This document shows positions 3,814-58,667 of a DNA stretch of 64,000 bases, one piece after another. The notes beneath the pieces were generated by a model. It worked only from the letters and a program-made list of their open reading frames with translations, did not search any database and was not told where the DNA came from. Both the position numbers and the translations under genes were made by a program. Position 1 is the stretch's first letter. Each line of letters opens with the position of its first letter. Location: the NCBI RefSeq assembly GCF_003334815.1, contig NZ_QOWO01000001.1. One strand, given 5' to 3'. This DNA is from Escherichia coli (GTDB taxonomy: Bacteria; Pseudomonadota; Gammaproteobacteria; Enterobacterales; Enterobacteriaceae).

Positions 3814-4526
3814 ACAATGTAAAATTACTGATTGCCGGAAGTGCCTTTTTTGCCATGTCAGCGCAAGCCGCTGATAGAGTATCAATTGACGTTAAGGTGA
3901 CTCTGGAAGCTGCAGCTTGTACTCCAATACTAAGCAACGGCGGAGTTGTTAACTTCGGTAGTCATTCAGTCAATAGACTTTCAACGCAGCACTACACACA
4001 GATTGGAACACGTAATATTAATATGACTATAACTTGCGAATCCGCTACCGGCATTGCGATTACCGCTCGTGATACACGAATGGATAGTATGACCACCGGA
4101 AAAGATAGTGGGGGTCAGAGTGGTGTAAAATATACCTTAAATGGCGGAGGTTATATTAGCCAGACAACGCGCTTATTCGGCTTAGGGAAAACAAAAGATA
4201 ATAAAAATATCGGTAGTTATGCCGTGTTAATTGATAGCAACAACATTAGTGCCAGCAATGGTAGCCAGACGTTAGCTGTATCAATAGCAGGTGCAGATGC
4301 CGTCATAACAGGGCAAAAAAGAGCATGGCAAACGCTCACCGCTTATCCGCTTGCAGTCGATCAAAGCTATTATTACACCTTTGTAAAACCAGGTGAAACA
4401 ACCCCAACTCCTGTAACGAACGCCATTATACCGCTTCAGGTGAGCGCATCTATCGCGAATGATTTAGGCGGTTCAGAAAAAATCGAACTTGATGGGAAAG
4501 CTGTGATAAGCGTAGTCTACTTGTGA
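3810..4526 (+). CDS. yhcF: Fimbrial-like protein / putative adhesin subunit
   Basis: ORF track 238 aa; signal peptide (MNNVKLLIAGSAFFAMSAQA); overlaps the yhcE stop. Confidence 0.75.
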   Translation: MNNVKLLIAGSAFFAMSAQAADRVSIDVKVTLEAAACTPILSNGGVVNFGSHSVNRLSTQHYTQIGTRNINMTITCESATGIAITARDTRMDSMTTGKDSGGQSGVKYTLNGGGYISQTTRLFGLGKTKDNKNIGSYAVLIDSNNISASNGSQTLAVSIAGADAVITGQKRAWQTLTAYPLAVDQSYYYTFVKPGETTPTPVTNAIIPLQVSASIANDLGGSEKIELDGKAVISVVYL

Positions 4527-4710
4527 TAACAATGCCGGACAGGAGTACTATCAGGCATTCGTTTTATACGATCGGTTAATGTTTCAGGAAAGCTCTTCGC
4601 ATATCTTGGGGAAAGTAAATGTAATACGCTGTTCTTAATTGTTCAGTGCTCACCCCCCAGAGTATAGCTCATTCCATTATTCAACTTAGCTCCATATAAA
4701 GGGACAGATA

Positions 4711-5897: not shown

Positions 5898-7230
<1,333 letters not shown>

Positions 7231-7234
<4 letters not shown>

Positions 7235-7920
7235 AGCACCGCCTTTTTCATCGCTGTGTTGTACCACTGACAAATGTGCTCAAGACGCGTGATTGCAGAA
7301 CCGACCGTCACCGCCCACGCGCCGTGGCGCATCGCATCCGCCGCCTGAGCAGGCGTGTTGTAACGCCCTTCGGCAATCACCCGACATCCGGCGTCGCTCA
7401 ACGTTTTCACCAGCGCCAGATCCGGCTCTTCTGGCGTTTCAGGCGTGGTATAGCCAGAAAGCGTAGTGCCAATAATTTCGGCTCCCAGCTTTTGGCATGC
7501 CAGGCCGTCTTCCGGCGTTGAGCAGTCGGTCATCGCCAGTAAACCGTGATGGTGAATACGTGCCAGCAGCGTTTCAACAGGCACCGGACGCGGGCGGTCG
7601 GTGCCGTCAATGGCGATAATGTCCGCGCCCGCCTGCGCCAGCGCATCAACATCTTCAATATAGGCCGTGATGCGTACCGGAGAATCCTCCAGATCGCGTT
7701 TCACAATTCCAATAATCGGCACGCTCACCACCGCACGCGTGGCTTGCAGATTTGCCACACCTTCAATGCGAATGGCAACCGCGCCCGCCTGTTCTGCCGC
7801 TAATGCCATGGCGGCGACGATTTCGGGTTTATCGAGCGGGCTGTCCGGAACCGGCTGGCAGGAGACAATCAGGCCACCGTTAGCAGCGATTTTTTGATCC
7901 AGTTGTGCAAGTAACGACAT
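7231..7920 (-). CDS. nanE: N-acetylmannosamine-6-phosphate 2-epimerase
   Basis: ORF track 243 aa; canonical start [10 protein letters not shown] (ATG at 7920), giving 229 aa. Confidence 0.9.
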
Positions 7921-47063: not shown

Positions 47064-48029
47064 ATGCGCATCGGACAATATCAGCTCAGAAATCGCCTGA
47101 TCGCAGCGCCCATGGCTGGCATTACAGACAGACCTTTTCGGACGTTGTGCTACGAGATGGGAGCCGGATTGACAGTATCCGAGATGATGTCTTCTAACCC
47201 ACAGGTTTGGGAAAGCGACAAATCTCGTTTACGGATGGTGCACATTGATGAACCCGGTATTCGCACCGTGCAAATTGCTGGTAGCGATCCGAAAGAAATG
47301 GCAGATGCAGCACGTATTAACGTGGAAAGCGGTGCCCAGATTATTGATATCAATATGGGTTGCCCGGCTAAAAAAGTGAATCGCAAGCTCGCAGGTTCAG
47401 CCCTCTTGCAGTACCCGGATGTCGTTAAATCGATCCTTACCGAGGTCGTCAATGCAGTGGACGTTCCTGTTACCCTGAAGATTCGCACCGGCTGGGCACC
47501 GGAACACCGTAACTGCGAAGAGATTGCCCAACTGGCTGAAGACTGTGGCATTCAGGCTCTGACCATTCATGGCCGTACACGCGCCTGTTTGTTCAATGGA
47601 GAAGCTGAGTACGACAGTATTCGGGCAGTTAAGCAGAAAGTTTCCATTCCGGTTATCGCGAATGGCGACATTACTGACCCGCTTAAAGCCAGAGCTGTGC
47701 TCGACTATACAGGGGCGGATGCCCTGATGATAGGCCGCGCAGCTCAGGGAAGACCCTGGATCTTTCGGGAAATCCAGCATTATCTGGACACTGGGGAGTT
47801 GCTGCCCCCGCTGCCTTTGGCAGAGGTTAAGCGCTTGCTTTGCGCGCACGTTCGGGAACTGCATGACTTTTATGGTCCGGCAAAAGGGTACCGAATTGCA
47901 CGTAAACACGTTTCCTGGTATCTCCAGGAACACGCTCCAAATGACCAGTTTCGGCGCACATTCAACGCCATTGAGGATGCCAGCGAACAGCTGGAGGCGT
48001 TGGAGGCATACTTCGAAAATTTTGCGTAA
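47064..48029 (+). CDS. dusB: tRNA-dihydrouridine synthase B
   Basis: ORF track 321 aa; recognised DusB. Confidence 0.95.
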
Positions 48030-48054
48030 ACAGAAATAAAGAGCTGACAGAACT

Positions 48055-48351
48055 ATGTTCGAACAACGCGTAAATTCTGACGTACTGACCGTTTCTACCG
48101 TTAACTCTCAGGATCAGGTAACCCAAAAACCCCTGCGTGACTCGGTTAAACAGGCACTGAAGAACTATTTTGCTCAACTGAATGGTCAGGATGTGAATGA
48201 CCTCTATGAGCTGGTACTGGCTGAAGTAGAACAGCCCCTGTTGGACATGGTGATGCAATACACCCGTGGTAACCAGACCCGTGCTGCGCTGATGATGGGC
48301 ATCAACCGTGGTACGCTGCGTAAAAAATTGAAAAAATACGGCATGAACTAA
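48055..48351 (+). CDS. fis: Nucleoid-associated protein Fis
   Basis: ORF track 98 aa; exact Fis sequence ([15 protein letters not shown]...KKYGMN). Confidence 0.98.
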
Positions 48352-48363
48352 AGTCAAGCTGTA

Positions 48364-48373
48364 ACGGCATGAA
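48364..48373. repeat. Left copy of the 10-bp direct repeat ACGGCATGAA (candidate attL core)
   Basis: Exact match to 57684-57693; 13 bp after the fis stop. Confidence 0.55.
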
Positions 48374-48375
48374 AT

Positions 48376-48408
48376 TAAAGGGGCTATTTCAGCCCCTTTA
48401 CTTTTTGT
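48376..48408 (+). terminator. Rho-independent terminator serving fis; lies inside the island boundary
   Basis: aaaggggctatttcagcccctttactttttgtt, located between the left direct repeat and the tape-measure stop. Confidence 0.75.
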
Positions 48409-48428
48409 TGCAACCGTACTGACAACCC

Positions 48429-50702
48429 TTATGGTGTTTGCGCGCCATCTATCATCATGCTTCGCTGCCTTACTGCTTGTTGCTGTCGTAGTTGCTGTAT
48501 CACCTTCCGGGCTAATGCATCTTCATTCATACCAGGTTCTGCCTTCACGCTGATGTGGTACTGGTCGTTGCTATGCACCGTAGTGCCACCAGAGCGGTTG
48601 GCCAGTGCAGGTGACGGCAGGGCAGCACCAGAGGCAGTGGTTGCTGCTGGCTGCTGTACATCGTCGCGGAATGGTGCGGTAAAGAAATCTTTGGTTTTCT
48701 GCCACGCACCACCAGCAACATCAGACACGGCGTTTTTAAACTCCAGTGCCTTGTTGGTCAGGTTGCCAATGTTGTCAGAAACCCAAATGATCTTATCAAT
48801 CAGGAACGTGATCGGTGCGGTCACAAGCTCGATGCCAGCCGCCAGGGTCTTACCGAACGTCATCCCCATTTTACCGGCCTTATCCAGTTCCTCGCCGCTG
48901 TATTTGACCGGTTCGGTCAGTGACGTGAACCAGTTGAAAGCCGTCTTAACCGCAGCGCCCACGCCATCAATGACGGGCTTCAATGGCCCCATGCGCTCAT
49001 ACAGGCGATGCAGGGCATCGCTAAGCGGTTCCAGCCCGGATTTGATACCTTCACCCACGCCACCAAAAAAAGCCTTCACACCAGCCCAATGGCGGTAAAT
49101 CTGATAACCTGCCAGCGCCAGGCCAGCTACGGCAGCACCAACGCCAGTGGAAATGAACGCCGCACCGATGGCGCGCACGCCGGTAGCCACCGCAGGCAGG
49201 CCACGAGTGCTGGCCAGAACGGCGGATGCGTTCATGCGGGCAAACAGGCTGGACACGTTCAGCAATCCGCCTTTCAGGAACGTGAACGCAAAGCCAGCGG
49301 CGAACGTCGCCACACGCAGTGCCACCAGTGCACTGGAACCAATAACCACTGCTTTGGTCACGGTAGGGTATTCGCGCGCCAGTTCGGCAACCTTGCCGAT
49401 AACCGGGCCAACGGTAGCCAGAACGCCGTTGAATGCTGGCAGCAGCACTGTGCCGATCGTGACGCCCAGGTTAGACACACGGTTGTTGAAAATCTTAAGC
49501 TGCGCCGACGTTTTGGCGGTGGCTGCCTCATATTCAGCCTGCATAGAACCGGCATATTTGGTCTTGTCTTTGACCATATCCAGATTCTTTTGGTACGTAT
49601 CAAGCTGTGTCAGCATTGGTGCGATAGCGCCAATCGATTCCTTACCAAACAGTTGCGAAAGCGTTGCCGCCTGCATGTGTTTTGGCAGCTTGCTGATCTT
49701 GGACAGGATGACGCGGATTGTTTCATCGGCGTTCAGTTGCATTGATTTTGCAACCTGCTTGGATGTGAAGCCAAGCTGTTTAAACGCTTCACGCTGTGAC
49801 TTCGTGGCGGATGCGCCAGCGGTCAGGGATAGCAGCAGGTTTTTAATACCGGTGGCCGCAATCTCATTCTGCACGCCCATACCGCGCAGCGTTGCACCCA
49901 TCGCAGCGATAGAACCGGAAGCTGCACCAGCGACGCTGCCAAGTGGCCCGATGCGCTGCGTGATTTCCAGGATGTCTTTGGCTGATGCGGCGGTGTTGTT
50001 GCCCAGGTAGTTGATCTTGTCGGCCAGAACGTTCATCTGGTCCTGCGTCATCCCGAAGGCGGCGCGCATCTCTGCCATTGCCTGGCCTGCCTGGTCGGCG
50101 CTGACGTCAAAAGCCACACCCATTTTGATGGCCGATTCAGCAAACTTGGTTAGTTCGCTGGTGGCGATGCCTGATTGAGCACCAGCGGCAACAATCTTGC
50201 CGATTTCGTTGGCTGCCATCGGCATTTTGGTTGACATATCCTGGATAGCCTGGCCCATCTTAACCAGGCCGTCAGGGGTTTCGAAGTTGGCAACCTTGCG
50301 GATATCTGCCAGCGTATCTTCAAAATCCATAGCCTGTTTGATCGGTACAGCTACCGTTGCGCCAAGTGCGACAGTCCCCAGGATTCCTTCTTTGTAGCCT
50401 TGACGCTTCGCCAGGTTGCGTTCGCGGGCATCCTCCACGCGTTTCAGGCGTTCGGTGGCAGAACGAAGGCGTTCAACCTGCCCGACAACCGTTTGATAGC
50501 GGTCCTTCATGCGGGAGAATATCGCGCTATCCTGGCCATAACGCTTCATTGCTTCATTTAACTGGCGCTGTTCGCGCGACAGCTTAGAGATTGCGCTACC
50601 AATCTCGACGGTATTTTTCTTTACAGTTCCAAATGCACCACGAAGGCTGCCGGAAACGGCCCCACCAATCGTGATTGTTGCATTTAACTTCTTGTTGGCC
50701 AT
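48429..50702 (-). CDS. Phage tail tape measure protein (TP901-family core-like)
   Basis: ORF track 757 aa; N-terminal coiled coil, Ala/Gly-rich core (GNNTAASAKDILEITQRIGPLGSVAGAASGS...), hydrophobic C-terminal segments; called on recognised family features, not a search. Confidence 0.75.
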   Translation of the reverse strand: MANKKLNATITIGGAVSGSLRGAFGTVKKNTVEIGSAISKLSREQRQLNEAMKRYGQDSAIFSRMKDRYQTVVGQVERLRSATERLKRVEDARERNLAKRQGYKEGILGTVALGATVAVPIKQAMDFEDTLADIRKVANFETPDGLVKMGQAIQDMSTKMPMAANEIGKIVAAGAQSGIATSELTKFAESAIKMGVAFDVSADQAGQAMAEMRAAFGMTQDQMNVLADKINYLGNNTAASAKDILEITQRIGPLGSVAGAASGSIAAMGATLRGMGVQNEIAATGIKNLLLSLTAGASATKSQREAFKQLGFTSKQVAKSMQLNADETIRVILSKISKLPKHMQAATLSQLFGKESIGAIAPMLTQLDTYQKNLDMVKDKTKYAGSMQAEYEAATAKTSAQLKIFNNRVSNLGVTIGTVLLPAFNGVLATVGPVIGKVAELAREYPTVTKAVVIGSSALVALRVATFAAGFAFTFLKGGLLNVSSLFARMNASAVLASTRGLPAVATGVRAIGAAFISTGVGAAVAGLALAGYQIYRHWAGVKAFFGGVGEGIKSGLEPLSDALHRLYERMGPLKPVIDGVGAAVKTAFNWFTSLTEPVKYSGEELDKAGKMGMTFGKTLAAGIELVTAPITFLIDKIIWVSDNIGNLTNKALEFKNAVSDVAGGAWQKTKDFFTAPFRDDVQQPAATTASGAALPSPALANRSGGTTVHSNDQYHISVKAEPGMNEDALARKVIQQLRQQQAVRQRSMMIDGAQTP

Positions 50703-50723
50703 AATAATTGTGCTCTCAAGGAA

Positions 50724-50930
50724 TTAATTAAGTAAATTTTCTGCAAGGGTGTGTTCACCGATTGCCCGCAAGGCGGCAGCGGCCAGTTGCAGGGCGCATT
50801 CGGTGCGGTAGTCTCGCTGTTTCTGCATTTCCTCCGCTGTGTTGCACGCCAGAACTTTTGGCAGGACCATATCCACCAGTTCAGGCCAGGGGTTTGTTCC
50901 TTCCGGTTTTGTGTGAATACGGTCCAGCAT
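50724..50930 (-). CDS. Small hypothetical protein immediately upstream of the tape measure gene (possible tail assembly chaperone)
   Basis: ORF track 68 aa; same strand and tight spacing within the operon; no recognisable motif. Confidence 0.4.
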   Translation of the reverse strand: MLDRIHTKPEGTNPWPELVDMVLPKVLACNTAEEMQKQRDYRTECALQLAAAALRAIGEHTLAENLLN

Positions 50931-50939
50931 GGTGCCCCC

Positions 50940-51257
50940 TTATGCACTCCGTACCAGGATAGCGCCGCGCTTCACCGCCTGGCGTTTGGCCCGTTCACCG
51001 GAACTGATGCGGCTGGATGGTTGCCACTTCGTGCGTCCCAGGGCGGATGCGTGGCTTTCCGCTTCGTCACGCATGATGCGGCCCGCTTCATCGGTCATGT
51101 GTTCGAATGCGTTTAAACGGTTGCGAAGGCTTGCCAGCAGGTCGGCTGCTTCGTAGCTGATAGGGTTTTTCTCTGAAATGGTTTGGAAACGCTTTGTTTC
51201 GCTAAGGATCAAACGCGCTTCTTCTTTCATTGATTCGTACAGGTCATGTTTTTTCAT
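50940..51257 (-). CDS. Hypothetical protein (possible tail assembly chaperone); start uncertain
   Basis: ORF track 149 aa (50940..51389); preferred start at the internal MKKHDLYESMKEE (ATG at 51257, ~104 aa) because the upstream extension is low-complexity. Confidence 0.4.
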   Translation of the reverse strand: MKKHDLYESMKEEARLILSETKRFQTISEKNPISYEAADLLASLRNRLNAFEHMTDEAGRIMRDEAESHASALGRTKWQPSSRISSGERAKRQAVKRGAILVRSA

Positions 51258-51471
51258 AGTATTGGCCGCTAACAATAGTTGTTGATGATTAAGTGAGTGC
51301 GCGCTTTTAGGTGACAGGTGCGGCGCAACCGGTGTGGAATTAGTGGTGGTTTTGACCGTCCAGGATGACCACCAACCTGGTTCCAGCATCCATCGTCTGA
51401 GGAACGATGAAGGTTAAATTTGGCCGGTTATTTGGGGCACAGGGAACCGGTGAAACCTGTATTCTTGGCCA

Positions 51472-51636
51472 TTATTTGCCGTTCAGCCCGCTACTCAGAA
51501 ACTTTTCAATCACCTGGCTGCGTGAAGGGCGGATGCCTGTTCTGCGTTCCAGTTTGGCTTGCTCTCTTTCGACCTGGCGCACCAGGTCAGGGGCGAGGCG
51601 TACCGTTACGTGCTGGCGTGTTTCTTGTCGTTTCAT
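51472..51636 (-). CDS. Ribbon-helix-helix (CopG/Arc-like) DNA-binding protein, 54 aa; absent from the ORF track (below length cutoff)
   Basis: Hand-translated: MKRQETRQHVTVRLAPDLVRQVEREQAKLERRTGIRPSRSQVIEKFLSSGLNGK; beta-strand then two helices typical of RHH; starts 3 nt after the upstream gene stop. Confidence 0.55.
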   Translation of the reverse strand: MKRQETRQHVTVRLAPDLVRQVEREQAKLERRTGIRPSRSQVIEKFLSSGLNGK

Positions 51637-51639
51637 GGC

Positions 51640-51960
51640 TTAGTACCTGTTCATCCAGCTTTCGCGCTTCTGTTTCGGGCGCTGCTCGCGGTAGTGACTG
51701 CGCACCAGGGAAGCGAGGTAATTCACGGCGCGTTCAATCTGGTACTGCTTAAGCTCCGGGTAAGCCTTGCGAATCCATTTTTCAGCAGCGTCATCGCTGT
51801 AGATGAATCCTGACCAGCCAACCGGCTGCACTACGATGCGCGGTGTGTTTTCATCACCGTGGCGCACATACATGGCCACACCTTCGATAGCTGCCAGGAT
51901 TTCACCCGGCAGGGCAGCGCGCTCCGCTGCCGCTTTTTTGCTGCCCCACCACATGATCAA
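51640..51960 (-). CDS. Hypothetical protein, ~105 aa, translationally coupled to the downstream RHH gene
   Basis: ORF track 106 aa; TTG or ATG start overlapping the stop of the upstream 294-aa gene. Confidence 0.45.
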   Translation of the reverse strand: MIMWWGSKKAAAERAALPGEILAAIEGVAMYVRHGDENTPRIVVQPVGWSGFIYSDDAAEKWIRKAYPELKQYQIERAVNYLASLVRSHYREQRPKQKRESWMNRY

Positions 51961-52841
51961 GCCTTCCAGAACATAGTTGAGTCAGGCACCAGTGCGGATG
52001 CGTTCACCCACACAACGATTTCAACGGCACCATTCAGCACGCGGCGGGCGGTGACGCGGATTTCATCATCCAGGGCAACGGCTGCATTGCCGAAAGCGCC
52101 AATGATTGTGCTGGAAGTCTGGCCGCTGATTTCAGCGCGTACACCGTAGGCACGCAGAACGCCGTCTTGCAGTTCCAGGCCGGTGCAATCACCGCCAACA
52201 ATGGCTTTAACTTCATCAAAGCGCAGGTTTTTGGCTGCAATCTTCTGCGCCACTGCGGTGAATGACGGGCTGGCCAGCGTTTCCGCTGCGGTTTCCAGGT
52301 GGTTCAGCAGTACGAAATCAGCCAGGTCAGCAATTCCGCGTTCAATGGCGGTGTTGACCACTTCCAGCGTGGTATCGTCTGCGAAGTCGTGTTTCATCTG
52401 CTTGCGGCTAAGGGTGTAGCCCACGCCGTAAGCCGGTGCGTTGTTGTGGTTGAACGCTGATACCAGGTAAGGCAGGCCGCTCATGGTGATTTCTTCGCCG
52501 TCAGCCACTTTGGCGAACGCACCAGGGCGAACGACAACGAAGCGGTCAGCCACTTCGCGGCCAGTCGTTGCGCCGGTGTTGCCAGTCGGAGGCGTGGTCA
52601 TCGGGCCAGGGATGCGGATGATTTCAGCGCCTGCCTGTGCCACCAGTGAACGTTCAGCCAGAACAGCGTTGAAGGTGGTCTGCTTGCCGCCTTTCGGGGT
52701 CAGCACGTCATTCATGGACAGGTAGCGAACTGCTGCAGGTTCCACAGGGATGAATTGAGTAATGTCACCGTTGCCATCAGTGCGAATGTGGCCGCCCTGG
52801 TGGTTCAACGCGTCGTTGATAAGTTGAGATAAAACGTTCAT
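51957..52841 (-). CDS. Phage structural-like protein, 294 aa (major tail- or capsid-like; unassigned)
   Basis: ORF track 322 aa; start moved to MNVLSQLINDAL (ATG at 52841), which has a GGAG RBS 8 nt upstream; first gene of the minus-strand operon ending in the tape measure. Confidence 0.4.
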   Translation of the reverse strand: MNVLSQLINDALNHQGGHIRTDGNGDITQFIPVEPAAVRYLSMNDVLTPKGGKQTTFNAVLAERSLVAQAGAEIIRIPGPMTTPPTGNTGATTGREVADRFVVVRPGAFAKVADGEEITMSGLPYLVSAFNHNNAPAYGVGYTLSRKQMKHDFADDTTLEVVNTAIERGIADLADFVLLNHLETAAETLASPSFTAVAQKIAAKNLRFDEVKAIVGGDCTGLELQDGVLRAYGVRAEISGQTSSTIIGAFGNAAVALDDEIRVTARRVLNGAVEIVVWVNASALVPDSTMFWKA

Positions 52842-53229
52842 TAAAAATGCTCCGGTTGTTGTGCAATAAATCGTCTGGAATGACTTAAAGATATACAGTA
52901 ACCAGGCCGAACACAATAGCCACAATGTGAGCTTTTTAATGTAAAATCAGTAACTTATAACCATGAATACTTGCAAATAACCAGGCATAATCCGGCGTAA
53001 TCGATATTTACACATCTTTACAATTCAGCGTGTGTAAAACGTGTTCGCTTTATTTTGCAATCTCGCAAGTATGGTTCCAGTGCTTTGATAGGATTCACAT
53101 AAATGATTGATTTACTTGACGTAATCATAAAGTGAGTTTTGTAGGGGCACGCACAACGCGAATTACGCGGGACCAATGCCCCCGCAGGCTGTACCCCCCT
53201 CGGAAGTACCTTGACTTTTTTGGCAGCAG

Positions 53230-53540
53230 ATGGCGATGACACCTAATGTCACCATGACGGCGTTATGTTGGAAAGGTGTCATTAGGTGTCATAGCGGGAA
53301 ACACGCTGATTATTAAAGAAAAATACAAACAAGATAATGTAATGAATGACACCTGTGACACCATGACACCCATTTCTATAAAGTATAACGACCACTGTTA
53401 CATTATCACAGTGGTCGTTATTTTCTTTAAAAATGCTGTCATAGGTGTCATAGGTGTCATTAGTAATGTCGCAACCCTTGCGGGTTATGGCTTGAGAACA
53501 ATGACACCTGCCATGACACCTTATAAATTAATGACACCTA
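53230..53540. repeat. Iteron array: at least 10 perfect copies of the octamer ATGACACC/GGTGTCAT in both orientations, with a central 9-bp-arm palindrome; probable replication origin
   Basis: Perfect copies start at 53236, 53275, 53285, 53346, 53363, 53444, 53453, 53501, 53513 and 53531; variants at 53246, 53355 and 53435; palindrome gaccactgt-N9-acagtggtc at 53390-53416; located 3' of the primase gene. Confidence 0.7.
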
Positions 53541-53607
53541 GGCGTCACTTTGAAAATAAAAAAAGCCCCGGCATTCGCCAGGGTAATGGGCAACAACTGT
53601 TGTGATG

Positions 53608-53832
53608 TTATGATCGGATGAACGGCAAGATTTCAGCGGAATCCACTACCCTTATGCGGTAGCTGCATAGCAGGTTTTCACCCAACTTGGCCAGTTCCTG
53701 CTGCACCTCTGGCAGCCTATTGCGAGCATGGTCTACCGCTTCCTGTTCAGTGGCGAAACCCTCCATAATTTCGGTTTCGGTGTAGGTGCCGTGTTCCGGG
53801 TCAAAAGCAATGATATATGCGCGATAACTCAT
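53608..53832 (-). CDS. Small hypothetical protein between the primase gene and the iteron origin
   Basis: ORF track 74 aa; GAGG RBS 6 nt upstream of the ATG. Confidence 0.5.
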   Translation of the reverse strand: MSYRAYIIAFDPEHGTYTETEIMEGFATEQEAVDHARNRLPEVQQELAKLGENLLCSYRIRVVDSAEILPFIRS

Positions 53833-53841
53833 AGTATTACC

Positions 53842-55530
53842 TCAAAACTGGTGGTTAGGCCCATCAAAATAGCGATGGTCTTGCTGTCCAAAAACTTTCG
53901 GTGGCATTAGGTAAAAACGCCCTTTACTTGTTCTACGTGCATCCCTTCCTGTCAGTTTTCGCAGAATGTTACCGCACTGCGTTGCCTGGGATTTTGTTGG
54001 CCGATCCTGCCCAATAGACAACAGAACATCCGTTGCAGTCATTTCTATATATGCAGCCAGGCGATCACTGTTCCAATCAAAACGCGCCAATATCATTTCT
54101 TCAATCGGGTCAGTTTGCCCGTGCTGTTCGTTCACGACTTCCAGCATGGCTTCTTCATCACGGTCCAGCCACCAGCGTTCACCTGCTTCAAACCAGGAAA
54201 GAACTTCGGCCCATAATTGTTGTGTGTCTATGCCATGCTCGTAGTTAACGGCAGTTACAGGAATGGTCCACCAGCGCACGTTCCCGGTGTCATCCGCCAG
54301 GAAGTGTTTCGGGTTCACTGACGCAAAAAACACGGTGCGGCGCTGGTACTTCGATTCAAGCCGGTCATAAGGGCGGCGCAGGTCATCACGGTCCTGGCTG
54401 ATAAATGCTTTGAGCTTGGCAATATCCGCCTTGCGAAACGTCGCATCCAATTCGCCTAGCTCAACAAGCCAGTGACTAATTGCGCTGGCCACGCTGTCTT
54501 TATTGCCGGGGTCAATAGTTGCTCCCACCTTAACCAGGTTGCGATTGTCAGGGGGCAGAAGCGCTTTAAACCATGCTGTTTTACCCAGTGACTGCTCGCC
54601 CTGGAAAACCAGCACGCCTTTGGACCAGAAACCCGCTTCTAAGTAAGCAGCCGCCACGGCAGACAGCAACCAACGACGCACCAGCATGGCCAGCAGATCG
54701 CGACTGTAGTCATCTGGCGTGCTGATAGTATTCAGCAGGTCTGCAAATCGGCTTCGTCCATCCCATTCACGTTGATTGATGAAATCCCTGACAGGATTAT
54801 AAGTATTGCGCACAGCGATAGTTTTGATATGACCTTCAATATTACTCATTGGTAACCGGTTCAGTGCGGCGAGGCTTAAAATTTCACTCACAGCGCAGTT
54901 ATCGCGAGCATCTGAACCGCCACTAACGCCAGGTACTAAAACCTCAACGTCCTTGCTAATCTCATTATATTTTGCAGAAATGCTGTAGTTATCTAATAGA
55001 CGTTCAACATTAGGGCGTGTGTTTAAAGGCTGGCCATTGCTTCCAATATTTGGCCAGGTTGTCATTAATACAGGAGCCATATCGTGAATGTCTTTTACAG
55101 TTGCTGCGGCGGTTGCTCGTTCTTCTTTGCGCAGCATGCCCACCAGGCTTTCACCGCGTAGGGCGGCGTCTCTAAGCCTGTCCATGTTCCATTTTTCCGG
55201 TTCACGGTCAGTAATGCCTTTAAATAAACGGGCTTCCTTAACTCCAGCCACTGCCAGCTTGTCAGCAATAGTGCTGATTTGAAGTTGCTTAATATCACCA
55301 GCCAGATATACCCGCGCAGACCGGCGACCATCGTCGATAATTCGTAGATTATCTAAATCATCCAGTTGTCTTGGCCCAAGGTAGACAGGAGGAGTAGTGT
55401 CACCGGCAACTTGTTTACCCATTCCTTCTTCCCAGCCCTTGGCATGGCTCCAAGCGTCAGAACCGGCAAAAATAATTGCTTCCGTAAAAGGGTCTTTAGG
55501 TAATAGCTTAACGTTAGGCGCGTTTCTCAT
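53842..55530 (-). CDS. Satellite-type primase / replication initiator with P-loop NTPase domain
   Basis: ORF track 562 aa; Walker A motif GEQSLGKTAW; sits between alpA and the iterons as in P4 alpha / PICI pri-rep arrangements. Confidence 0.65.
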   Translation of the reverse strand: MRNAPNVKLLPKDPFTEAIIFAGSDAWSHAKGWEEGMGKQVAGDTTPPVYLGPRQLDDLDNLRIIDDGRRSARVYLAGDIKQLQISTIADKLAVAGVKEARLFKGITDREPEKWNMDRLRDAALRGESLVGMLRKEERATAAATVKDIHDMAPVLMTTWPNIGSNGQPLNTRPNVERLLDNYSISAKYNEISKDVEVLVPGVSGGSDARDNCAVSEILSLAALNRLPMSNIEGHIKTIAVRNTYNPVRDFINQREWDGRSRFADLLNTISTPDDYSRDLLAMLVRRWLLSAVAAAYLEAGFWSKGVLVFQGEQSLGKTAWFKALLPPDNRNLVKVGATIDPGNKDSVASAISHWLVELGELDATFRKADIAKLKAFISQDRDDLRRPYDRLESKYQRRTVFFASVNPKHFLADDTGNVRWWTIPVTAVNYEHGIDTQQLWAEVLSWFEAGERWWLDRDEEAMLEVVNEQHGQTDPIEEMILARFDWNSDRLAAYIEMTATDVLLSIGQDRPTKSQATQCGNILRKLTGRDARRTSKGRFYLMPPKVFGQQDHRYFDGPNHQF

Positions 55531-55795
55531 ATCGCACCCCGCGTTTTAACTCCAGATACATCGCCCATGATTCAGAATCGCTGATGCGAAACGGCACCAG
55601 GCTATCAGCCATAGCGGCGTGACGTGAAACAATAGTCCACGGGCGGTTTACACCTTCGCGAATGCATGCTTGCAACAATAATTGTGCTGCCGCCATACGC
55701 TGGGCGGTAAGTTCGCCAACGGTTAACTGGCGCTGTGGGTTACGCAACAGGCTGTTATAGCGACTGATAGCCTGATTTACGGTTGTTTTCTTCAT
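55514..55795 (-). CDS. Small hypothetical protein directly upstream of the primase gene, overlapping its start
   Basis: ORF track 93 aa; GAGGTGG RBS; 17-nt overlap with the primase start. Confidence 0.5.
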   Translation of the reverse strand: MKKTTVNQAISRYNSLLRNPQRQLTVGELTAQRMAAAQLLLQACIREGVNRPWTIVSRHAAMADSLVPFRISDSESWAMYLELKRGVRYEKRA

Positions 55796-55803
55796 AAGCC
55801 ACC

Positions 55804-55983
55804 TCAGCGCTGTACTGGCTGGCGGCTTTCAAGCCACGCCATAACATCTTTGCGCCGCCAGGCCACGCGTTTTGGCCCTAATTTTATGCAATTAGGAAAC
55901 GTGCCAGCCTGGATATAGCGCCAGATAGTCATGCGGGATAATGTTGTTAGTGTTGTGACTTGCTTAGCAGTCAGTAATTCCAT
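55804..55983 (-). CDS. alpA: AlpA-family phage transcriptional regulator (MerR-like HTH), 59 aa; absent from the ORF track (below length cutoff)
   Basis: Hand-translated: MELLTAKQVTTLTTLSRMTIWRYIQAGTFPNCIKLGPKRVAWRRKDVMAWLESRQPVQR; classic AlpA signature; GAGGG RBS. Confidence 0.7.
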   Translation of the reverse strand: MELLTAKQVTTLTTLSRMTIWRYIQAGTFPNCIKLGPKRVAWRRKDVMAWLESRQPVQR

Positions 55984-56277
55984 CTTACGGCCCTCAAAAC
56001 ATGGCCGGTGGATATGTGGTCTGTAATGATTTATGATTATGTTGCGTTAACAAAGAACGCGACCATTACAGCCTTCACCGGCTTTTTGGTATTAAGGGGT
56101 TCGGTTTTCTGTTTGGCGACGTGAACCGATCCCCGCCTTATTCAAGCCCTCAGTTCTGCTGGGGGCTTTTTATTACTACATGACAATAATACTCAAATTG
56201 TATCAGCAGTAAATACCCTTTAAATTCATAAACTTAACTGCAAATAACGCTACATAACTCTATATAATCATCAATTT

Positions 56278-57513
56278 TTAATTATCTGATTTTAAAAGGT
56301 TTATTTTTTCTAAATATTTTATCCATTTGTCCAAGGCTAACCGTTTTTCCGGGATGTACTGGCTACGGTTGTACACCGCCATCACTCCTGGCATTGAGTG
56401 GCCCAGCAACTGTTCAACCACATGCGGGGCTATCCCCAAGTTATTTAGACTGGTGGCAAAAGTGCGGCGCAGGTCATGCAACGTCCACGGCGTTGAATGC
56501 TCTAATCGTCTGTATAAGATACGCCCCCACTGGCTGACAGCTTCGGGTTTCTTCATTTCACCAAGCAGCATTCCGCTATCAAGATGATTTTGGCGTAGCT
56601 GTAAAATAAATGGCTGTATAGATTCAGGCACGGGTCTGATGATTTTCTCCCCACCCTTGCTATGTTCTCGCGGAACTGTCCAAATCCATTCTTTCACGTT
56701 CCATTCCGACCATGTCGAAAGACGAATTTCTTGTGTTCTTGCACCAAACACTATTAGCAATTTTAAAAGCGCGGTGTAGTAAGGTAGAAACGCATATTCG
56801 CTTTTTAGCGCATTCCAAAGGCCACTAAGTTCTTCAGAAGTTAAAACACGATCACGTTTTGCCTGCTTTCTTCCAACATCAGTAACTTTGATATCCTCCA
56901 GCGCATCACTGTAAACATCGTGCAGCCTGCGGTTGTGAATCAACGCCTGCTTGCAGTTACCTAATATGTAGCCGCTTGCTACCGGCGCGACTTTTTTGAT
57001 TCTGCTAAATGTCTCCATCCATCTTGCTTTAGAGCACTGTTCAAGTGGCAATTCGCCGATGAAAGGATAAATATGTCTTTCGAATTGGCGTCTATGCCTT
57101 TCAAAGTTGACCCGGTTTTCCGCCGCGTACTCATTAATCCAGCGTTCCAATGCTTCCCTGATAGTGACAGGTTTCATGGTTTTTGCTGACTCTTGGTCAA
57201 ACTGGTCTTTAGGATCTAGATTATGAGCAAGCCACCGTTTGCATTGGTCGCGTTTCACCCTCGCCTCAGCAAGAGATAAGGCAGGATACTTGCCCAGCAC
57301 TAGCGTCAAAGTATTGGCGCTTTTATGCTTATTCTTATAACGGAACAACCATTGGATGTTATTGGCCGGTCTCTTCTCGCCATCAAGGATTTTGCGCCTT
57401 GATGGTGTAACGCGAACAGAAAGGCTGCCACCGTCAGCAACATCAAAAGGTTTTTCGATGACTTTGCGGGTTAACGCACGCAATTGAACATCTGAGAGTT
57501 TATTTTCGGCCAT
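56278..57513 (-). CDS. int: Tyrosine recombinase, P4-type integrase family
   Basis: ORF track 435 aa; start taken at MAENKLSDVQLRAL (ATG at 57513, 411 aa); P4-integrase-like N-terminus (DGGSLSVRVTPSRRK) and C-terminal catalytic motifs (HDLRRTF...LGHS...VYNR...Y). Confidence 0.85.
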   Translation of the reverse strand: MAENKLSDVQLRALTRKVIEKPFDVADGGSLSVRVTPSRRKILDGEKRPANNIQWLFRYKNKHKSANTLTLVLGKYPALSLAEARVKRDQCKRWLAHNLDPKDQFDQESAKTMKPVTIREALERWINEYAAENRVNFERHRRQFERHIYPFIGELPLEQCSKARWMETFSRIKKVAPVASGYILGNCKQALIHNRRLHDVYSDALEDIKVTDVGRKQAKRDRVLTSEELSGLWNALKSEYAFLPYYTALLKLLIVFGARTQEIRLSTWSEWNVKEWIWTVPREHSKGGEKIIRPVPESIQPFILQLRQNHLDSGMLLGEMKKPEAVSQWGRILYRRLEHSTPWTLHDLRRTFATSLNNLGIAPHVVEQLLGHSMPGVMAVYNRSQYIPEKRLALDKWIKYLEKINLLKSDN

Positions 57514-57683
57514 AGAGTTAATGACAACCTTTTTGACAACTGTATGCAGGGAGTAACTGATAACTGATGATACAATGCGAGCCAATAAAAAATAAATATC
57601 TCTTTCCGCATCAATTATTTATGATGAATACAAATTATCTAGAGTGATAATAAATTACGTATAATGACTCTGTATTTTACAAT

Positions 57684-57693
57684 ACGGCATGAA
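57684..57693. repeat. Right copy of the 10-bp direct repeat ACGGCATGAA (candidate attR core)
   Basis: Exact match to 48364-48373; ~170 bp beyond the integrase start. Confidence 0.55.
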
Positions 57694-57721
57694 CTAATTC
57701 AGGTTAGCTAAATGCTTGATT

Positions 57722-57760
57722 AAAAAGGCGCTACTCGGCATGGGGAAGCGCCTTTTTTAT
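57722..57760 (+). terminator. Orphaned rho-independent terminator, probably the ancestral fis terminator displaced by the insertion
   Basis: aaaaaggcgct...agcgccttttttat on the plus strand with no upstream plus-strand gene; lies just outside attR. Confidence 0.5.
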
Positions 57761-57782
57761 AGGTGTCACAAAGGGAGTGACC

Positions 57783-58667
57783 ATGAGAACAGGATGTGAA
57801 CCGACCCGGTTTGGTAATGAAGCTAAGACCATTATTCACGGTGATGCGCTTGCCGAACTTAAAAAGATCCCCGCCGAAAGTGTCGATCTGATCTTTGCCG
57901 ACCCACCATATAACATCGGTAAAAATTTTGATGGTCTGATCGAAGCCTGGAAAGAAGATCTGTTTATCGACTGGCTGTTTGAAGTGATTGCAGAGTGCCA
58001 CCGCGTTCTGAAAAAGCAGGGCAGCATGTACATCATGAACAGTACGGAAAACATGCCCTTTATCGATCTCCAGTGCCGCAAGCTTTTTACCATCAAAAGT
58101 CGCATCGTCTGGTCATATGACAGTTCTGGAGTGCAGGCGAAAAAACACTACGGCTCCATGTACGAACCCATCCTGATGATGGTGAAAGACGCAAAGAACT
58201 ACACATTCAACGGTGATGCTATTCTGGTAGAAGCCAAAACCGGATCGCAGCGCGCGTTGATCGATTATCGCAAAAATCCTCCACAGCCTTACAATCATCA
58301 AAAAGTACCGGGTAACGTTTGGGATTTTCCGCGCGTGCGTTATTTGATGGATGAATATGAAAACCACCCGACGCAAAAACCGGAAGCCTTACTGAAACGC
58401 ATTATTCTCGCCTCTTCCAACCCAGGCGATATCGTTCTCGACCCGTTTGCTGGTAGCTTTACTACCGGTGCCGTAGCCATCGCCAGCGGACGAAAATTCA
58501 TTGGTATTGAGATCAACAGCGAGTACATCAAAATGGGGCTTCGACGGCTGGATGTCGCGTCGCATTACTCTGCGGAAGAACTGGCGAAAGTGAAAAAAAG
58601 AAAGACCGGCAACCTGTCAAAACGAAGCCGGTTAAGCGAAGTTGACCCCGATCTCATTACAAAGTAA
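57783..58667 (+). CDS. yhdJ: DNA adenine methyltransferase YhdJ
   Basis: ORF track 296 aa (GTG at 57777); ATG at 57783 taken as start; DPPY motif (FADPPYNIG). Confidence 0.93.
   Translation: MRTGCEPTRFGNEAKTIIHGDALAELKKIPAESVDLIFADPPYNIGKNFDGLIEAWKEDLFIDWLFEVIAECHRVLKKQGSMYIMNSTENMPFIDLQCRKLFTIKSRIVWSYDSSGVQAKKHYGSMYEPILMMVKDAKNYTFNGDAILVEAKTGSQRALIDYRKNPPQPYNHQKVPGNVWDFPRVRYLMDEYENHPTQKPEALLKRIILASSNPGDIVLDPFAGSFTTGAVAIASGRKFIGIEINSEYIKMGLRRLDVASHYSAEELAKVKKRKTGNLSKRSRLSEVDPDLITK

What the first reader, a model, noticed from the sequence alone, without database searches (positions are those of the whole stretch)
53230..53540. Dense iteron array of the octamer ATGACACC with a central palindrome: candidate satellite origin
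Within about 310 bp there are 10 perfect and 3 near-perfect copies of ATGACACC/GGTGTCAT in both orientations, often in doublets or triplets. AT-rich stretches and a perfect 9-bp-arm palindrome (53390-53416) lie in the middle. The array is directly 3' of the primase gene, which mirrors the octamer iterons that P4 alpha protein binds at ori/crr, though the sequence is different.
Basis: seen in the sequence. Interest (0 to 1): 0.6.

Follow-up and report, generated by a model that had tools for sequence, protein, structure and literature searches.

The report
Replication origin of a phage satellite
The dense cluster of ATGACACC repeats is real and is almost certainly the replication origin of a small (9.3 kb) E. 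coli phage satellite, built like the known origins of SaPI/PICI and P4 satellites, so the origin itself is an ordinary kind of thing even though the satellite carrying it seems undescribed.

Summary
ATGACACC occurs 10 times perfectly and 3 times with one mismatch in 53236-53538. The whole 64-kb window has 15 copies against about 1.8 expected by chance.

The copies form five groups of alternating orientation, with two AT-rich spacers and a central palindrome. The palindrome has 14-bp arms, not 9.

The array lies in a 9.35-kb island inserted at the 3' end of fis. It sits between the terminator of the rep operon and a 73-bp copy of the cos site of Jilinvirus (ep3-like) phages.

The "primase" has no detectable primase domain. 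It is a SaPI-Rep1-like initiator-helicase with a predicted C-terminal winged helix.

In 13 related elements an array with the same layout sits at the same place. The repeat sequence changes with the Rep C-terminal domain and with no other gene. Four integrase-less relatives are ~9-kb circular plasmids, and one of them uses the same TGACACCT repeat.

Best reading, confidence about 0.85: a Rep-specific, iteron-type origin of the SaPI/PICI/P4 kind, that is, a new member of a known kind. No replication experiment exists. The surrounding satellite, which carries cos and a tape-measure gene and has Jilinvirus as probable helper, was not found in the literature searched.

The parts
53236..53261 (+). 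Iteron group A: ATGACACC (53236), ATGTCACC (53246) and a degenerate ATGACGGC (53254), all pointing right
53275..53292 (-). Iteron group B: two perfect copies (53275, 53285) pointing left, 10 bp apart
53293..53345 (.). AT-rich spacer 1 (GC 25-30%), between the divergent groups B and C. One of two candidate unwinding regions.
   Evidence: An AT-rich spacer at the same place in L011, L013, L015, L016 and L019.
53346..53370 (+). Iteron group C: ATGACACC, GTGACACC, ATGACACC pointing right, spacing 9 and 8 bp
53385..53421 (.). Central perfect palindrome: 14-bp arms (53385-53398 and 53408-53421) with a 9-nt loop. It is the centre of a larger imperfect dyad, C-palindrome-D, with 44 of 64 positions matching.
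   Evidence: Weaker hairpins of different sequence at the same place in relatives.
53422..53469 (.). 48-bp block (TTTTCTTTAAAAAT, then group D, then TAGTAATG) that is invariant between the E. coli, L015 and Pantoea elements. Its A/T run (53422-53434) is the second candidate unwinding region.
53435..53460 (-). Iteron group D: ATGACAGC, ATGACACC, ATGACACC pointing left, spacing 9 and 9 bp
53501..53548 (+). Iteron group E: three perfect copies pointing right (53501, 53513, 53531), plus a degenerate inverted copy GTGACGCC (53541-53548)
53556..53583 (-). Intrinsic terminator ending the rep operon: stem 53583-53566 followed by a T-run. The array starts right after it.
   Evidence: The same terminator-then-array order occurs in L009, L011, L013-L016, L019 and in P4 (t-alpha then crr).
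53608..53832 (-). 74-aa ORF of unknown function between rep and the array. Its sequence does not track the iteron type.
53842..55530 (-). rep: 562-aa initiator-helicase. It has an N-terminal alpha/beta domain (1-130), an SF3/VapE ATPase (Pfam 252-470) and a C-terminal winged helix (about 475-542). It is the predicted iteron-binding protein.
53148..53220 (.). cos site of the presumed Jilinvirus helper, directly left of the array. The cohesive-end sequence GGACCAATGCCCC is at 53170-53182. It is not part of the origin but shares the intergenic region.

Best explanation
The array is the vegetative replication origin (ori) of a ~9.35-kb cos-type phage satellite integrated at the 3' end of fis.

Inferred mechanism, by homology with SaPI Rep and P4 alpha:
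1. The 562-aa Rep is a hexameric SF3 helicase that is also the initiator. The winged helix of its C-terminal domain binds the 13 ATGACACC(T) repeats.
2. The repeats come in doublets and triplets spaced about one helical turn apart, in five groups of alternating orientation. Rep assemblies are therefore placed head-on around the two AT-rich spacers.
3. Binding melts an AT-rich stretch, either 53293-53345 or the hairpin plus A/T run at 53385-53434.
4. The helicase loads itself on the opened DNA.
5. Priming must come from elsewhere (host DnaG or the helper phage primase), because Rep has no detectable primase domain.

What is shown: the array and its statistics; its position after the rep terminator; the Rep fold; the co-variation of repeat sequence with the Rep C-terminal domain; the plasmid state of relatives.

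What is inferred: binding, melting, the site of unwinding, the source of primers, and induction by the helper.
For: 1. Enrichment and anatomy.

2. The Rep protein.
- Pfam finds a VapE domain only.
- phmmer hits PDB 7pds at E = 2e-16.
- The AlphaFold model has pLDDT 88.6, with residues 475-542 ordered helix-strand-helix-helix-strand-strand.
- The best Foldseek match is 7pds 'PriRep1 with dsDNA', E = 2.7e-21, TM 0.65 over the whole target.
- SaPI Reps bind iterons downstream of rep through a C-terminal winged helix, with an AT-rich centre and iterons in opposite directions on each side (PMC9371898).
- Gram-negative PICIs have the same origin plan, and the EcCICFT073 rep-ori was shown to work (PMC6092414).

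3. Same place, same plan, different repeat in relatives:
- L015: ATGACACC x9
- L013 (Pantoea): TGACACCT x9
- L019: TGACACCT x11
- L016: CTGACACC x9
- L024: GTGACCA x7
- L014: TGGACCCT x9
- L009/L010: CGCCACCA
- L011: TGTTCCCC x11
- L018: GGTTACAA x10
- L004/L005: TGTTCACC
- L006: GTTGGTTCA

4. The repeat follows the Rep C-terminal domain (CTD).
- A CTD 58-90% identical goes with the TGACACC core.
- A CTD of 29% identity or less goes with other repeats, even where the N-terminal domain is 83-84% identical.
- L024 has the ep3-type recognition helix and the ep3-type repeat TGGTCAC.
- Positive control: L004 Rep carries the P4 alpha origin-binding domain (1ka8, E = 5e-26) and is followed by P4's own type-1 repeat TGTTCACC.

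5. No other gene tracks the repeat: alpA, orf93, orf74 and the late genes do not.

6. Repeat cores are better conserved than spacers: 77% against 54%, p = 1e-4, against the Pantoea element.

7. Integrase-less relatives are circular ~9-kb plasmids with no known replicon type and no other replication gene. In pSCU-121-2 all 11 TGACACC copies of the plasmid lie in the array.

8. There is no DnaA box in the region.
Against: - No experiment on this or any closely related element shows Rep binding or Rep-dependent replication.
- Rep lacks a recognisable primase domain, so autonomy is not guaranteed for this particular element. The plasmid relatives with the TGACACC repeat have full toprim-VapE Reps.
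- In P4 the array right after alpha is crr, an auxiliary site, and initiation starts at a second array 4.5 kb away. Here only one array exists, so it presumably does both jobs, but that is an inference.
- The co-variation rests on about a dozen elements that are not fully independent.
- The role of the central palindrome is unexplained. It is strong only in the window type (z = -7.1) and weak in the others (z = -0.2 to -2.6).
Confidence: 0.85

Rival explanations
1. The repeats are packaging signals. They would be a cosB-like set of binding sites for a small terminase subunit, since they lie directly beside the cos cleavage site.
For: The array begins 16 bp from the conserved cos block at 53148-53220. 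Lambda-type cos sites have repeated terminase-binding sites next to cosN (general knowledge). Some relatives encode a small terminase: L009 has terS and L016 has a Phage_Nu1 protein.
Against: - The helper phages ep3 and ECOO78 share the cos block but have no ATGACACC array beside it. Similarity stops at the edge of the block.
- Satellites with the same cos block carry unrelated repeats: window, L011, L016, L018, L019.
- In L011, L016 and L019 about 400 bp of other sequence separates cos from the array, while the array stays next to the rep terminator.
- The window island has no terminase gene by PHROGs.
- The repeat follows the Rep C-terminal domain.
Confidence: 0.04
2. The repeats are operator sites for a transcription factor (AlpA-like protein, orf93, orf74, or a helper late activator) that controls the downstream 'late' operon. 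They would not be an origin.
For: The array lies upstream, on the minus strand, of the operon that starts at 52925. Weak promoter-like matches occur inside it.
Against: - alpA is about 66% identical in elements with the same repeat and in elements with different repeats, and is absent from plasmids L016 and L019, which keep the TGACACC repeat.
- orf93 is 99% identical in L009, which has another repeat, and gives no hit in L013 and L015, which have the same repeat as the window.
- orf74 is 92% identical in L018, which has another repeat, and is absent from L009 and L014.
- The late genes are about 93% identical across four repeat types.
- Promoter-like matches are no more frequent than in shuffles: 5 against 3.0 +/- 2.1.
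Confidence: 0.04
3. The array is only an auxiliary cis element, either a crr-like enhancer or a copy-control/handcuffing site. Initiation would occur elsewhere or depend wholly on the helper phage replisome.
For: In P4 the array that directly follows the alpha terminator is crr, and ori lies 4.5 kb away. This Rep lacks a primase domain.
Against: There is no second cluster in the island. Besides the array, the only ATGACACC copy in the island is a single one inside rep, at 54286. In the 9.1-kb plasmid pSCU-121-2 every TGACACC copy is in the one array. The array includes AT-rich spacers flanked by oppositely oriented repeats, which is the plan of complete SaPI/PICI origins.
Confidence: 0.06
4. 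The region is coding. The RefSeq 'hypothetical protein' ORF at 53276-53605 (+) would be a real gene, and the repeats would encode a repeated Met-Thr-Pro peptide.
For: RefSeq annotates this ORF in most E. coli copies. Four of the plus-strand copies are in frame with it.
Against: - The repeats occur on both strands and in more than one frame.
- The ORF runs against all island genes and starts with GTG.
- It is broken by indels in the Pantoea and L015 arrays.
- No gene is called there in L013, L014, L015 or L022.
- Some RefSeq copies carry no annotation there.
Confidence: 0.01

Closest known systems
SaPI / PICI origins with their Rep initiator-helicases (SaPI1 Rep1, SaPIbov1; E. coli EcCICFT073)
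   Same: - The origin lies downstream of rep.
- It has many short repeats in sets of opposite orientation around an AT-rich region.
- Rep is an SF3/VapE helicase whose C-terminal winged helix gives origin specificity.
- Repeat sequence differs between elements along with their Rep.
- There are no DnaA boxes.
- The Rep model superposes on SaPI1 Rep (7pds) over the whole chain.

   Different: - The repeats are 8-9 bp, against 5-6 bp reported for SaPIs.
- There are five alternating groups and two AT-rich spacers instead of two sets and one spacer.
- A strong central palindrome is present.
- A 74-aa ORF and a terminator lie between rep and the array.
- No separate or fused primase is detectable.
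- Sequence identity to SaPI1 Rep is only about 19%.
Phage P4 ori/crr and the alpha protein
   Same: - Octamer repeats in both orientations.
- The array starts right after the terminator of the replicase gene, exactly like P4 crr (t-alpha 4604-4628, crr 4291-4590).
- The replicase C-terminal domain is a winged helix.
- Both are cos-type satellites of a myovirus.
- Relatives of this island (L004, L005) carry a true P4-alpha binding domain together with P4's TGTTCACC repeat.

   Different: - The repeat sequence is ATGACACC, not TGTTCACC.
- There is one array instead of the separated ori and crr.
- Rep has no primase domain.
- Its C-terminal domain gives no sequence match to 1ka8.
- No sid, psu or delta homologues were found.
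- The presumed helper is a Jilinvirus, not P2.
Iteron plasmid origins (pSC101, R6K, RK2, pPS10 class)
   Same: A cluster of repeats bound by the replicon's own initiator lies next to an AT-rich unwinding element. Relatives of this island live as plasmids.
   Different: Those origins use 17-22-bp direct repeats, a dimeric winged-helix Rep without helicase activity, DnaA boxes and host DnaB/DnaC loading (general knowledge; review PMC4980987 listed, not read). Here the repeats are 8 bp in both orientations, no DnaA box is present, and the initiator is itself a helicase.
PLE origin and RepA of Vibrio cholerae satellites
   Same: A satellite-encoded initiator acts on a repeat-containing origin inside the satellite (PMC7145576, listed; abstract only).
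   Different: The paper was not read beyond its abstract, and no sequence or structural comparison with PLE RepA was made here.

Membership tests
SaPI/PICI-type origin (Rep-ori module) | The origin lies immediately 3' of the replication initiator gene | tested here: met
   The array starts 8-18 bp after the T-run of the rep-operon terminator (53556-53583). A 225-bp ORF lies between rep and the terminator. The position is the same in 13 relatives.
SaPI/PICI-type origin (Rep-ori module) | Sets of short repeats flank an AT-rich region, with at least two repeats on each side pointing in opposite directions | tested here: met
   B(<<) | AT-rich spacer 53293-53345 | C(>>>), and C(>>>) | palindrome plus A/T run | D(<<<). 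The criterion comes from PMC9371898 and PMC6092414.
SaPI/PICI-type origin (Rep-ori module) | The initiator is an SF3/VapE-type helicase with a C-terminal winged-helix DNA-binding domain | tested here: met
   Pfam VapE at 252-470; 7pds by sequence, E = 2e-16; model with a winged-helix topology at 475-542; Foldseek match to 7pds, E = 2.7e-21. This rests on a prediction, not a solved structure.
SaPI/PICI-type origin (Rep-ori module) | Repeat sequence is specific to the cognate Rep | tested here: met
   Co-variation with Rep CTD identity across 13 elements, and none with the other genes.
SaPI/PICI-type origin (Rep-ori module) | The Rep plus ori segment drives replication, and Rep binds and melts ori | not testable with these tools
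   Indirect evidence only: integrase-less relatives are circular plasmids without any known replicon type.
SaPI/PICI-type origin (Rep-ori module) | A primase (Pri) is encoded upstream of Rep or fused to it | tested here: not met
   Pfam, PHROGs and NCBIfam find no primase domain in the 562-aa protein or in the 93-aa ORF upstream. The N-terminal 130-aa domain gives no significant fold match; the best Foldseek E-value is 0.06. Relatives L019, L024 and ep3 do have a Toprim domain.
P4 ori/crr - alpha system | Type-1 repeat TGTTCACC | tested here: not met
   The repeat here is ATGACACC. P4's repeat was verified in NC_001609.
P4 ori/crr - alpha system | Two separate cis sites (ori and crr), both carrying the repeat | tested here: not met
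   The island has a single cluster. The only other copy in the island is at 54286, inside rep.
P4 ori/crr - alpha system | An alpha-type protein: primase, then helicase, then the 1ka8-type origin-binding domain | tested here: not met
   There is no primase domain and no sequence match to 1ka8 at E <= 1, whereas L004 Rep matches 1ka8 at E = 5e-26. The general winged-helix fold is shared.
Iteron plasmid oriV (RepA/pi/TrfA class) | 17-22-bp direct repeats, DnaA box(es), and a non-helicase Rep of the Rep_3 type | tested here: not met
   The repeats are 8-bp units in both orientations, there is no DnaA box, and Rep is a VapE helicase.
cosB-type terminase binding sites | The repeats are conserved together with cos and are present beside cos in the helper phage | tested here: not met
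   They are absent beside cos in ep3 and ECOO78. They differ among satellites that share the cos block.

The most novel reading that the evidence does not exclude
The array is the origin of a satellite family that has not yet been described. These are ~9-kb cos-type parasites of virulent Jilinvirus (ep3-like) myophages.

- They carry a full-length copy of the helper's tape-measure gene but no capsid or terminase genes.
- They exist either integrated at fis or as integrase-less plasmids.
- They swap Rep-CTD/iteron cassettes as units. Some cassettes, including the ATGACACC one, appear to derive from the helper's own primase-helicase and origin.
- The window element would be a primase-less version whose origin firing depends on a primase supplied by the helper or the host.
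Probability: 0.4. Interest if true: 0.6.

Novelty: new member of a known kind. Interest (0 to 1): 0.4.

Why it matters
The origin gives a defined ~330-bp cis element and a cognate 562-aa protein for a small E. coli mobile element found in about 1% of complete genomes. The natural series of at least eight Rep-CTD/repeat pairs on one common scaffold could be used to map how a winged helix reads an 8-bp repeat, and to build orthogonal Rep-ori pairs.

The larger value is in the context found while checking it. The helper cos site lies next to the origin, the tape-measure gene resembles the helper's, and there are plasmid relatives. Together these point to a satellite system for Jilinvirus phages that could be tested directly by infecting an island-carrying strain with ep3 or ECOO78.

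Tried and rejected
- Rfam scan of 48000-58000 at E <= 1: only two chance-level hits, none in the array. The region is not a known RNA.
- Promoter and terminator scans: promoter-like matches are at shuffle level. The one terminator belongs to the rep operon.
- DnaA box, Fis-like and Dam (GATC) motifs: none inside the array. One IHF-like match at 53100 and one GATC at 53612 lie outside it.
- The ~9.5-kb Logan contigs holding the identical Rep (L021, L022) looked like excised circles. Their ends run into the fis and yhdJ flanks and there is no terminal overlap, so they are integrated copies.
- The E. coli record with the array but no rep (L008) looked like a counter-example to Rep-repeat linkage. 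It is a deletion remnant of the island.
- The genome-contig scan with Rep returned only 5 loci. It was useful for the N-terminal-domain relatives only.
- N-terminal domain of Rep (1-143): a separate model (pLDDT 78) gave no significant PDB match. MAFFT aligns it loosely to the Toprim region of the longer relatives, but the EG and DxD catalytic motifs are not kept. Whether it is a decayed Toprim remains open.
- Central hairpin as a conserved structure: it is strong only in the window type, so I do not claim a conserved function.
- Literature searches for a Jilinvirus satellite, a satellite with a tape-measure gene, or an ATGACACC iteron found nothing relevant. The search for TGTTCACC returned only primer noise, so the P4 repeat was taken from the P4 GenBank annotation instead.
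Full report
**1. The observation**

ATGACACC occurs 15 times in the 64-kb window on both strands, and 10 of those copies lie in 53236-53538. Dinucleotide-preserving shuffles give a mean of 1.8 and a maximum of 6 for the whole window. At the density seen outside the array, 0.024 copies would be expected in 303 bp, so P(>=10) is about 1e-23.

Three more copies differ at one position: 53246 ATGTCACC, 53355 GTGACACC and 53435(-) ATGACAGC. Two differ at two positions. No other octamer reaches 5 copies per 400 bp anywhere in the window. The unit extends to ATGACACCT.

The copies form five groups of alternating orientation:
- A: 53236-53261, pointing right
- B: 53275-53292, pointing left
- C: 53346-53370, pointing right
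- D: 53435-53460, pointing left
- E: 53501-53538, pointing right

Within groups the spacing is 8-12 bp.

An AT-rich spacer (GC 25-30%) lies between B and C. Between C and D lies a perfect palindrome followed by TTTTCTTTAAAAAT. As single-stranded DNA it folds at -14.4 kcal/mol, z = -7.1. C, the palindrome and D together form a larger imperfect dyad.

**2. The element that carries it**

The window is E. coli chromosome. A 9.35-kb island lies between fis and yhdJ. It is bounded by a repeat of the fis 3' end, GGCATGAACTAA, at 48340-48351 and 57686-57697.

All island genes are on the minus strand:
- integrase, 56278-57585
- AlpA-like gene, 55804-55983
- a 93-aa ORF
- the 562-aa gene, 53842-55530
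- a 74-aa ORF, 53608-53832
- the non-coding stretch that holds the array
- five small or unknown ORFs
- a 757-aa tape-measure protein, 48429-50702

The rep operon ends in an intrinsic terminator at 53566-53583, and the array begins just after its T-run. The island occurs in 47-66 of 5,426 complete E. coli genomes. Near-identical Rep proteins occur in Klebsiella, Enterobacter, Citrobacter and Pantoea.

**3. A helper cos site lies next to the array**

The GC-rich block 53148-53220, 16 bp left of the array, is 98.6% identical to a non-coding stretch of Jilinvirus phages. In ep3 this stretch is at 15601-15673, just upstream of the small terminase gene. In phages ECOO78 and Arya the match sits at the physical end of the linear record.

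The ECOO78 record both starts and ends with GGACCAATGCCCC, which equals window 53170-53182. That is the signature of a cohesive end. The island's tape-measure protein is 58% identical over its full length to that of ep3. Residues 159-556 of the 562-aa protein are 65% identical to the ep3 'primase'.

The island is therefore a cos-type satellite whose probable helper is an ep3-like phage. Helper dependence has not been tested.

**4. The neighbouring protein is an initiator-helicase, not a demonstrable primase**

- Pfam finds only a VapE domain at 252-470.
- PHROG 'primase' families match only through their C-terminal helicase halves.
- NCBIfam finds nothing.
- The only PDB sequence match is 7pds, E = 2e-16. 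This is SaPI1 Rep bound to dsDNA.

An AlphaFold model built on 67 sequences (mean pLDDT 88.6) has a C-terminal domain ordered helix-strand-helix-helix-strand-strand at residues 475-542, which is a winged helix. Its best Foldseek match is again 7pds, E = 2.7e-21, TM 0.65 over the whole target chain.

SaPI Reps are self-loading helicases. Their C-terminal winged helix recognises repeats placed immediately downstream of rep, with an AT-rich centre and repeats pointing in opposite directions on each side (PMC9371898). Gram-negative PICIs share this plan, and the EcCICFT073 rep-ori pair was shown to drive replication (PMC6092414).

The N-terminal 130 residues form an alpha/beta domain with no significant structural match. 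They do not keep the Toprim catalytic motifs.

**5. Comparative test: same place, same plan, different repeat**

In every relative examined, the stretch after the rep terminator carries an array with the same alternation of groups, an AT-rich spacer, a small central hairpin followed by a T/A run, and a tight inverted triplet (or doublet).

| Element | Repeat |
|---|---|
| L015 (metagenome contig, host not identified) | ATGACACC x9 |
| L013 (Pantoea) | TGACACCT x9 |
| L019 (plasmid pSCU-121-2) | TGACACCT x11 |
| L016 | CTGACACC x9 |
| L024 | GTGACCA x7 |
| L014 (Klebsiella) | TGGACCCT x9 |
| L009 / L010 (E. coli, same fis site) | CGCCACCA |
| L011 (plasmid pM121-3) | TGTTCCCC x11 |
| L018 (Proteus plasmid pW47-1) | GGTTACAA x10 |
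| L004 / L005 (Raoultella, Pluralibacter) | TGTTCACC |
| L006 | GTTGGTTCA |

**6. The repeat follows the Rep C-terminal domain**

Identity to the window Rep was measured domain by domain:

| Element | N-terminal domain | C-terminal domain (CTD) | Repeat |
|---|---|---|---|
| L015 | 68% | 90% | same as window |
| L013 | 64% | 90% | same core |
| L019 | not measured | 67% | same core |
| L016 | 25% | 58% | TGACACC core |
| L024 | not measured | 57% | GTGACCA |
| L014 | 84% | 29% | different |
| L009 | 83% | 26% | different |
| L011 | 18% | 18% | different |

The predicted recognition helix and wing are nearly identical in the window and L019. The window has KSQATQCGNILRKLTG...GRFYLMPP and L019 has KSQATSCGNILRKLTG...GRFYPIPP.

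L024 has the ep3-type helix (KSQSTHVSNVLRRL) and the repeat TGGTCAC. The same motif forms clusters in the phages: ep3 at 13192-13448 and ECOO78 at 2332-2632.

There is also a positive control. L004 Rep carries the P4 alpha origin-binding domain (PDB 1ka8, E = 5e-26) and is followed by TGTTCACC. That is P4's annotated 'ori type 1 repeat'.

No other gene tracks the repeat:
- alpA is about 66% identical in every integrated relative examined, whatever its repeat, and is absent from the plasmids.
- orf93 is 99% identical in L009, which has a different repeat.
- orf74 is 92% identical in L018, which has a different repeat.
- The late genes are about 93% identical across four repeat types.

Between the window and the Pantoea element, repeat cores are 77% conserved and spacers 54%, p = 1e-4. 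A 48-bp block at 53422-53469 is invariant across the window, two other E. coli copies (L001, L008), L015 and the Pantoea element.

**7. Natural evidence for autonomy**

Four relatives without an integrase are deposited as circular plasmids:
- pM121-3, 8.9 kb
- pSCU-121-2, 9.1 kb
- pW47-1 of Proteus, 9.0 kb
- CP077066.1, 17.4 kb

PLSDB (MOB-suite) lists all four as non-mobilizable. The typing shown for the three whose full records were read (pM121-3, pW47-1, pSCU-121-2) gives no replicon type, and in those three the only replication-type gene is the VapE Rep. In pSCU-121-2 all 11 TGACACC copies of the plasmid are in the array. This is the closest thing to a functional test available here. Note, however, that its Rep includes a Toprim domain that the window Rep lacks.

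**8. Rival explanations**

- cosB-like terminase sites. The helpers have no such repeats beside cos. Satellites sharing the cos block have unrelated repeats. In L011, L016 and L019 the array stays with the rep terminator, about 400 bp away from cos.
- Operators for a regulator. No candidate protein co-varies with the repeat.
- crr-like auxiliary site only. There is no second cluster in the island.
- A real coding ORF (RefSeq 53276-53605). The repeats are on both strands, the frame is broken in relatives, and gene callers disagree.

**9. Mechanism**

Shown: the array, its placement, the Rep fold, the co-variation and the plasmid relatives.

Inferred by homology:
1. Rep winged helices bind the repeats.
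2. Assemblies on oppositely oriented groups bracket an AT-rich stretch and melt it.
3. The helicase loads itself.
4. Primers come from host DnaG or the helper primase-helicase, since this Rep has no primase domain.

Which spacer opens is unknown, and so is the role of the palindrome. The palindrome is strong only in the window type; relatives have weaker hairpins of different sequence at the same spot.

**10. Comparison and novelty**

By every feature that could be tested here except a primase partner, this is a SaPI/PICI-type Rep-ori module. It also resembles P4, where crr follows the alpha terminator in the same way. It fails P4 membership on repeat sequence, on the two-site arrangement and on the alpha domain set. 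It is not an iteron-plasmid oriV: the repeats are 8 bp, there is no DnaA box, and the initiator is a helicase.

What may be new is the satellite around it. No paper in the searched library describes a Jilinvirus satellite or a satellite carrying a tape-measure gene. That library is incomplete, so this is not proof of novelty.

Noticed in passing
window 53148-53220 (cohesive end 53170-53182): A 73-bp block 98.6% identical to the cos region of Jilinvirus phages (ep3, ECO1230-10, ECOO78, Arya). The ECOO78 record begins and ends with GGACCAATGCCCC. The island thus carries its presumed helper's packaging site right beside the origin.
   Followed up: yes
window 48429-50702 (-): The satellite encodes a full-length tail tape-measure protein 58% identical to that of phage ep3. 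PHROGs recognises no capsid, portal or terminase genes in the island. Why a ~9-kb satellite keeps a tape-measure copy is unexplained; altering tail length or interfering with helper tails are guesses.
   Followed up: partly
L011 (NZ_CP083588.1), L019 (CP054330.1), L018 (NZ_CP104987.1), CP077066.1: Integrase-less relatives of the island exist as ~9-kb circular, non-mobilizable plasmids in E. coli and Proteus mirabilis. They have the same cos block, late genes and tape-measure gene. The 17.4-kb record may be a dimer; this was not checked.
   Followed up: partly
window 55140-55530 (Rep residues 1-130); L004, L005, L006, L009, L014: Rep genes are mosaics. The same N-terminal 130-aa domain (58-84% identical) is joined to quite different helicase/CTD modules, including a P4-alpha-type module in Raoultella and Pluralibacter. 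The domain has no significant fold match and lacks the Toprim catalytic motifs.
   Followed up: partly
L012 (ep3) 13192-13448; L023 (ECOO78) 2332-2632: Jilinvirus phages have their own cluster of (G)GTCACC / TGGTCAC repeats (8 and 11 copies) beside the late-activator gene. Satellite L024, whose Rep has the ep3-type recognition helix, uses the same repeat. This is a candidate phage origin and is not annotated as such.
   Followed up: partly
window 53276-53605 (+): RefSeq annotates a 109-aa 'hypothetical protein' (WP_112793409.1) lying entirely within the repeat array. Its Met-Thr-Pro repeats are ATGACACC read in frame. It is probably a spurious gene call.
   Followed up: yes
window 48340-48351 and 57686-57697: The island is bounded by a duplication of the last codons of fis (GGCATGAACTAA), so it integrates into the 3' end of fis and restores it. 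Several different satellite variants (L009, L010, L024) use the same site.
   Followed up: partly
window about 53122: About 30 E. coli copies are 99% identical to the window from 53122 rightwards (cos, array, rep) but diverge to the left. This marks a recombination boundary between the replication/cos module and the late-gene module.
   Followed up: no
L008 (NZ_JALDNN010000001.1) 6169-7700: One E. coli strain keeps only a remnant of the island between fis and yhdJ. The array and cos are 99% identical to the window's, but rep and int are deleted.
   Followed up: yes
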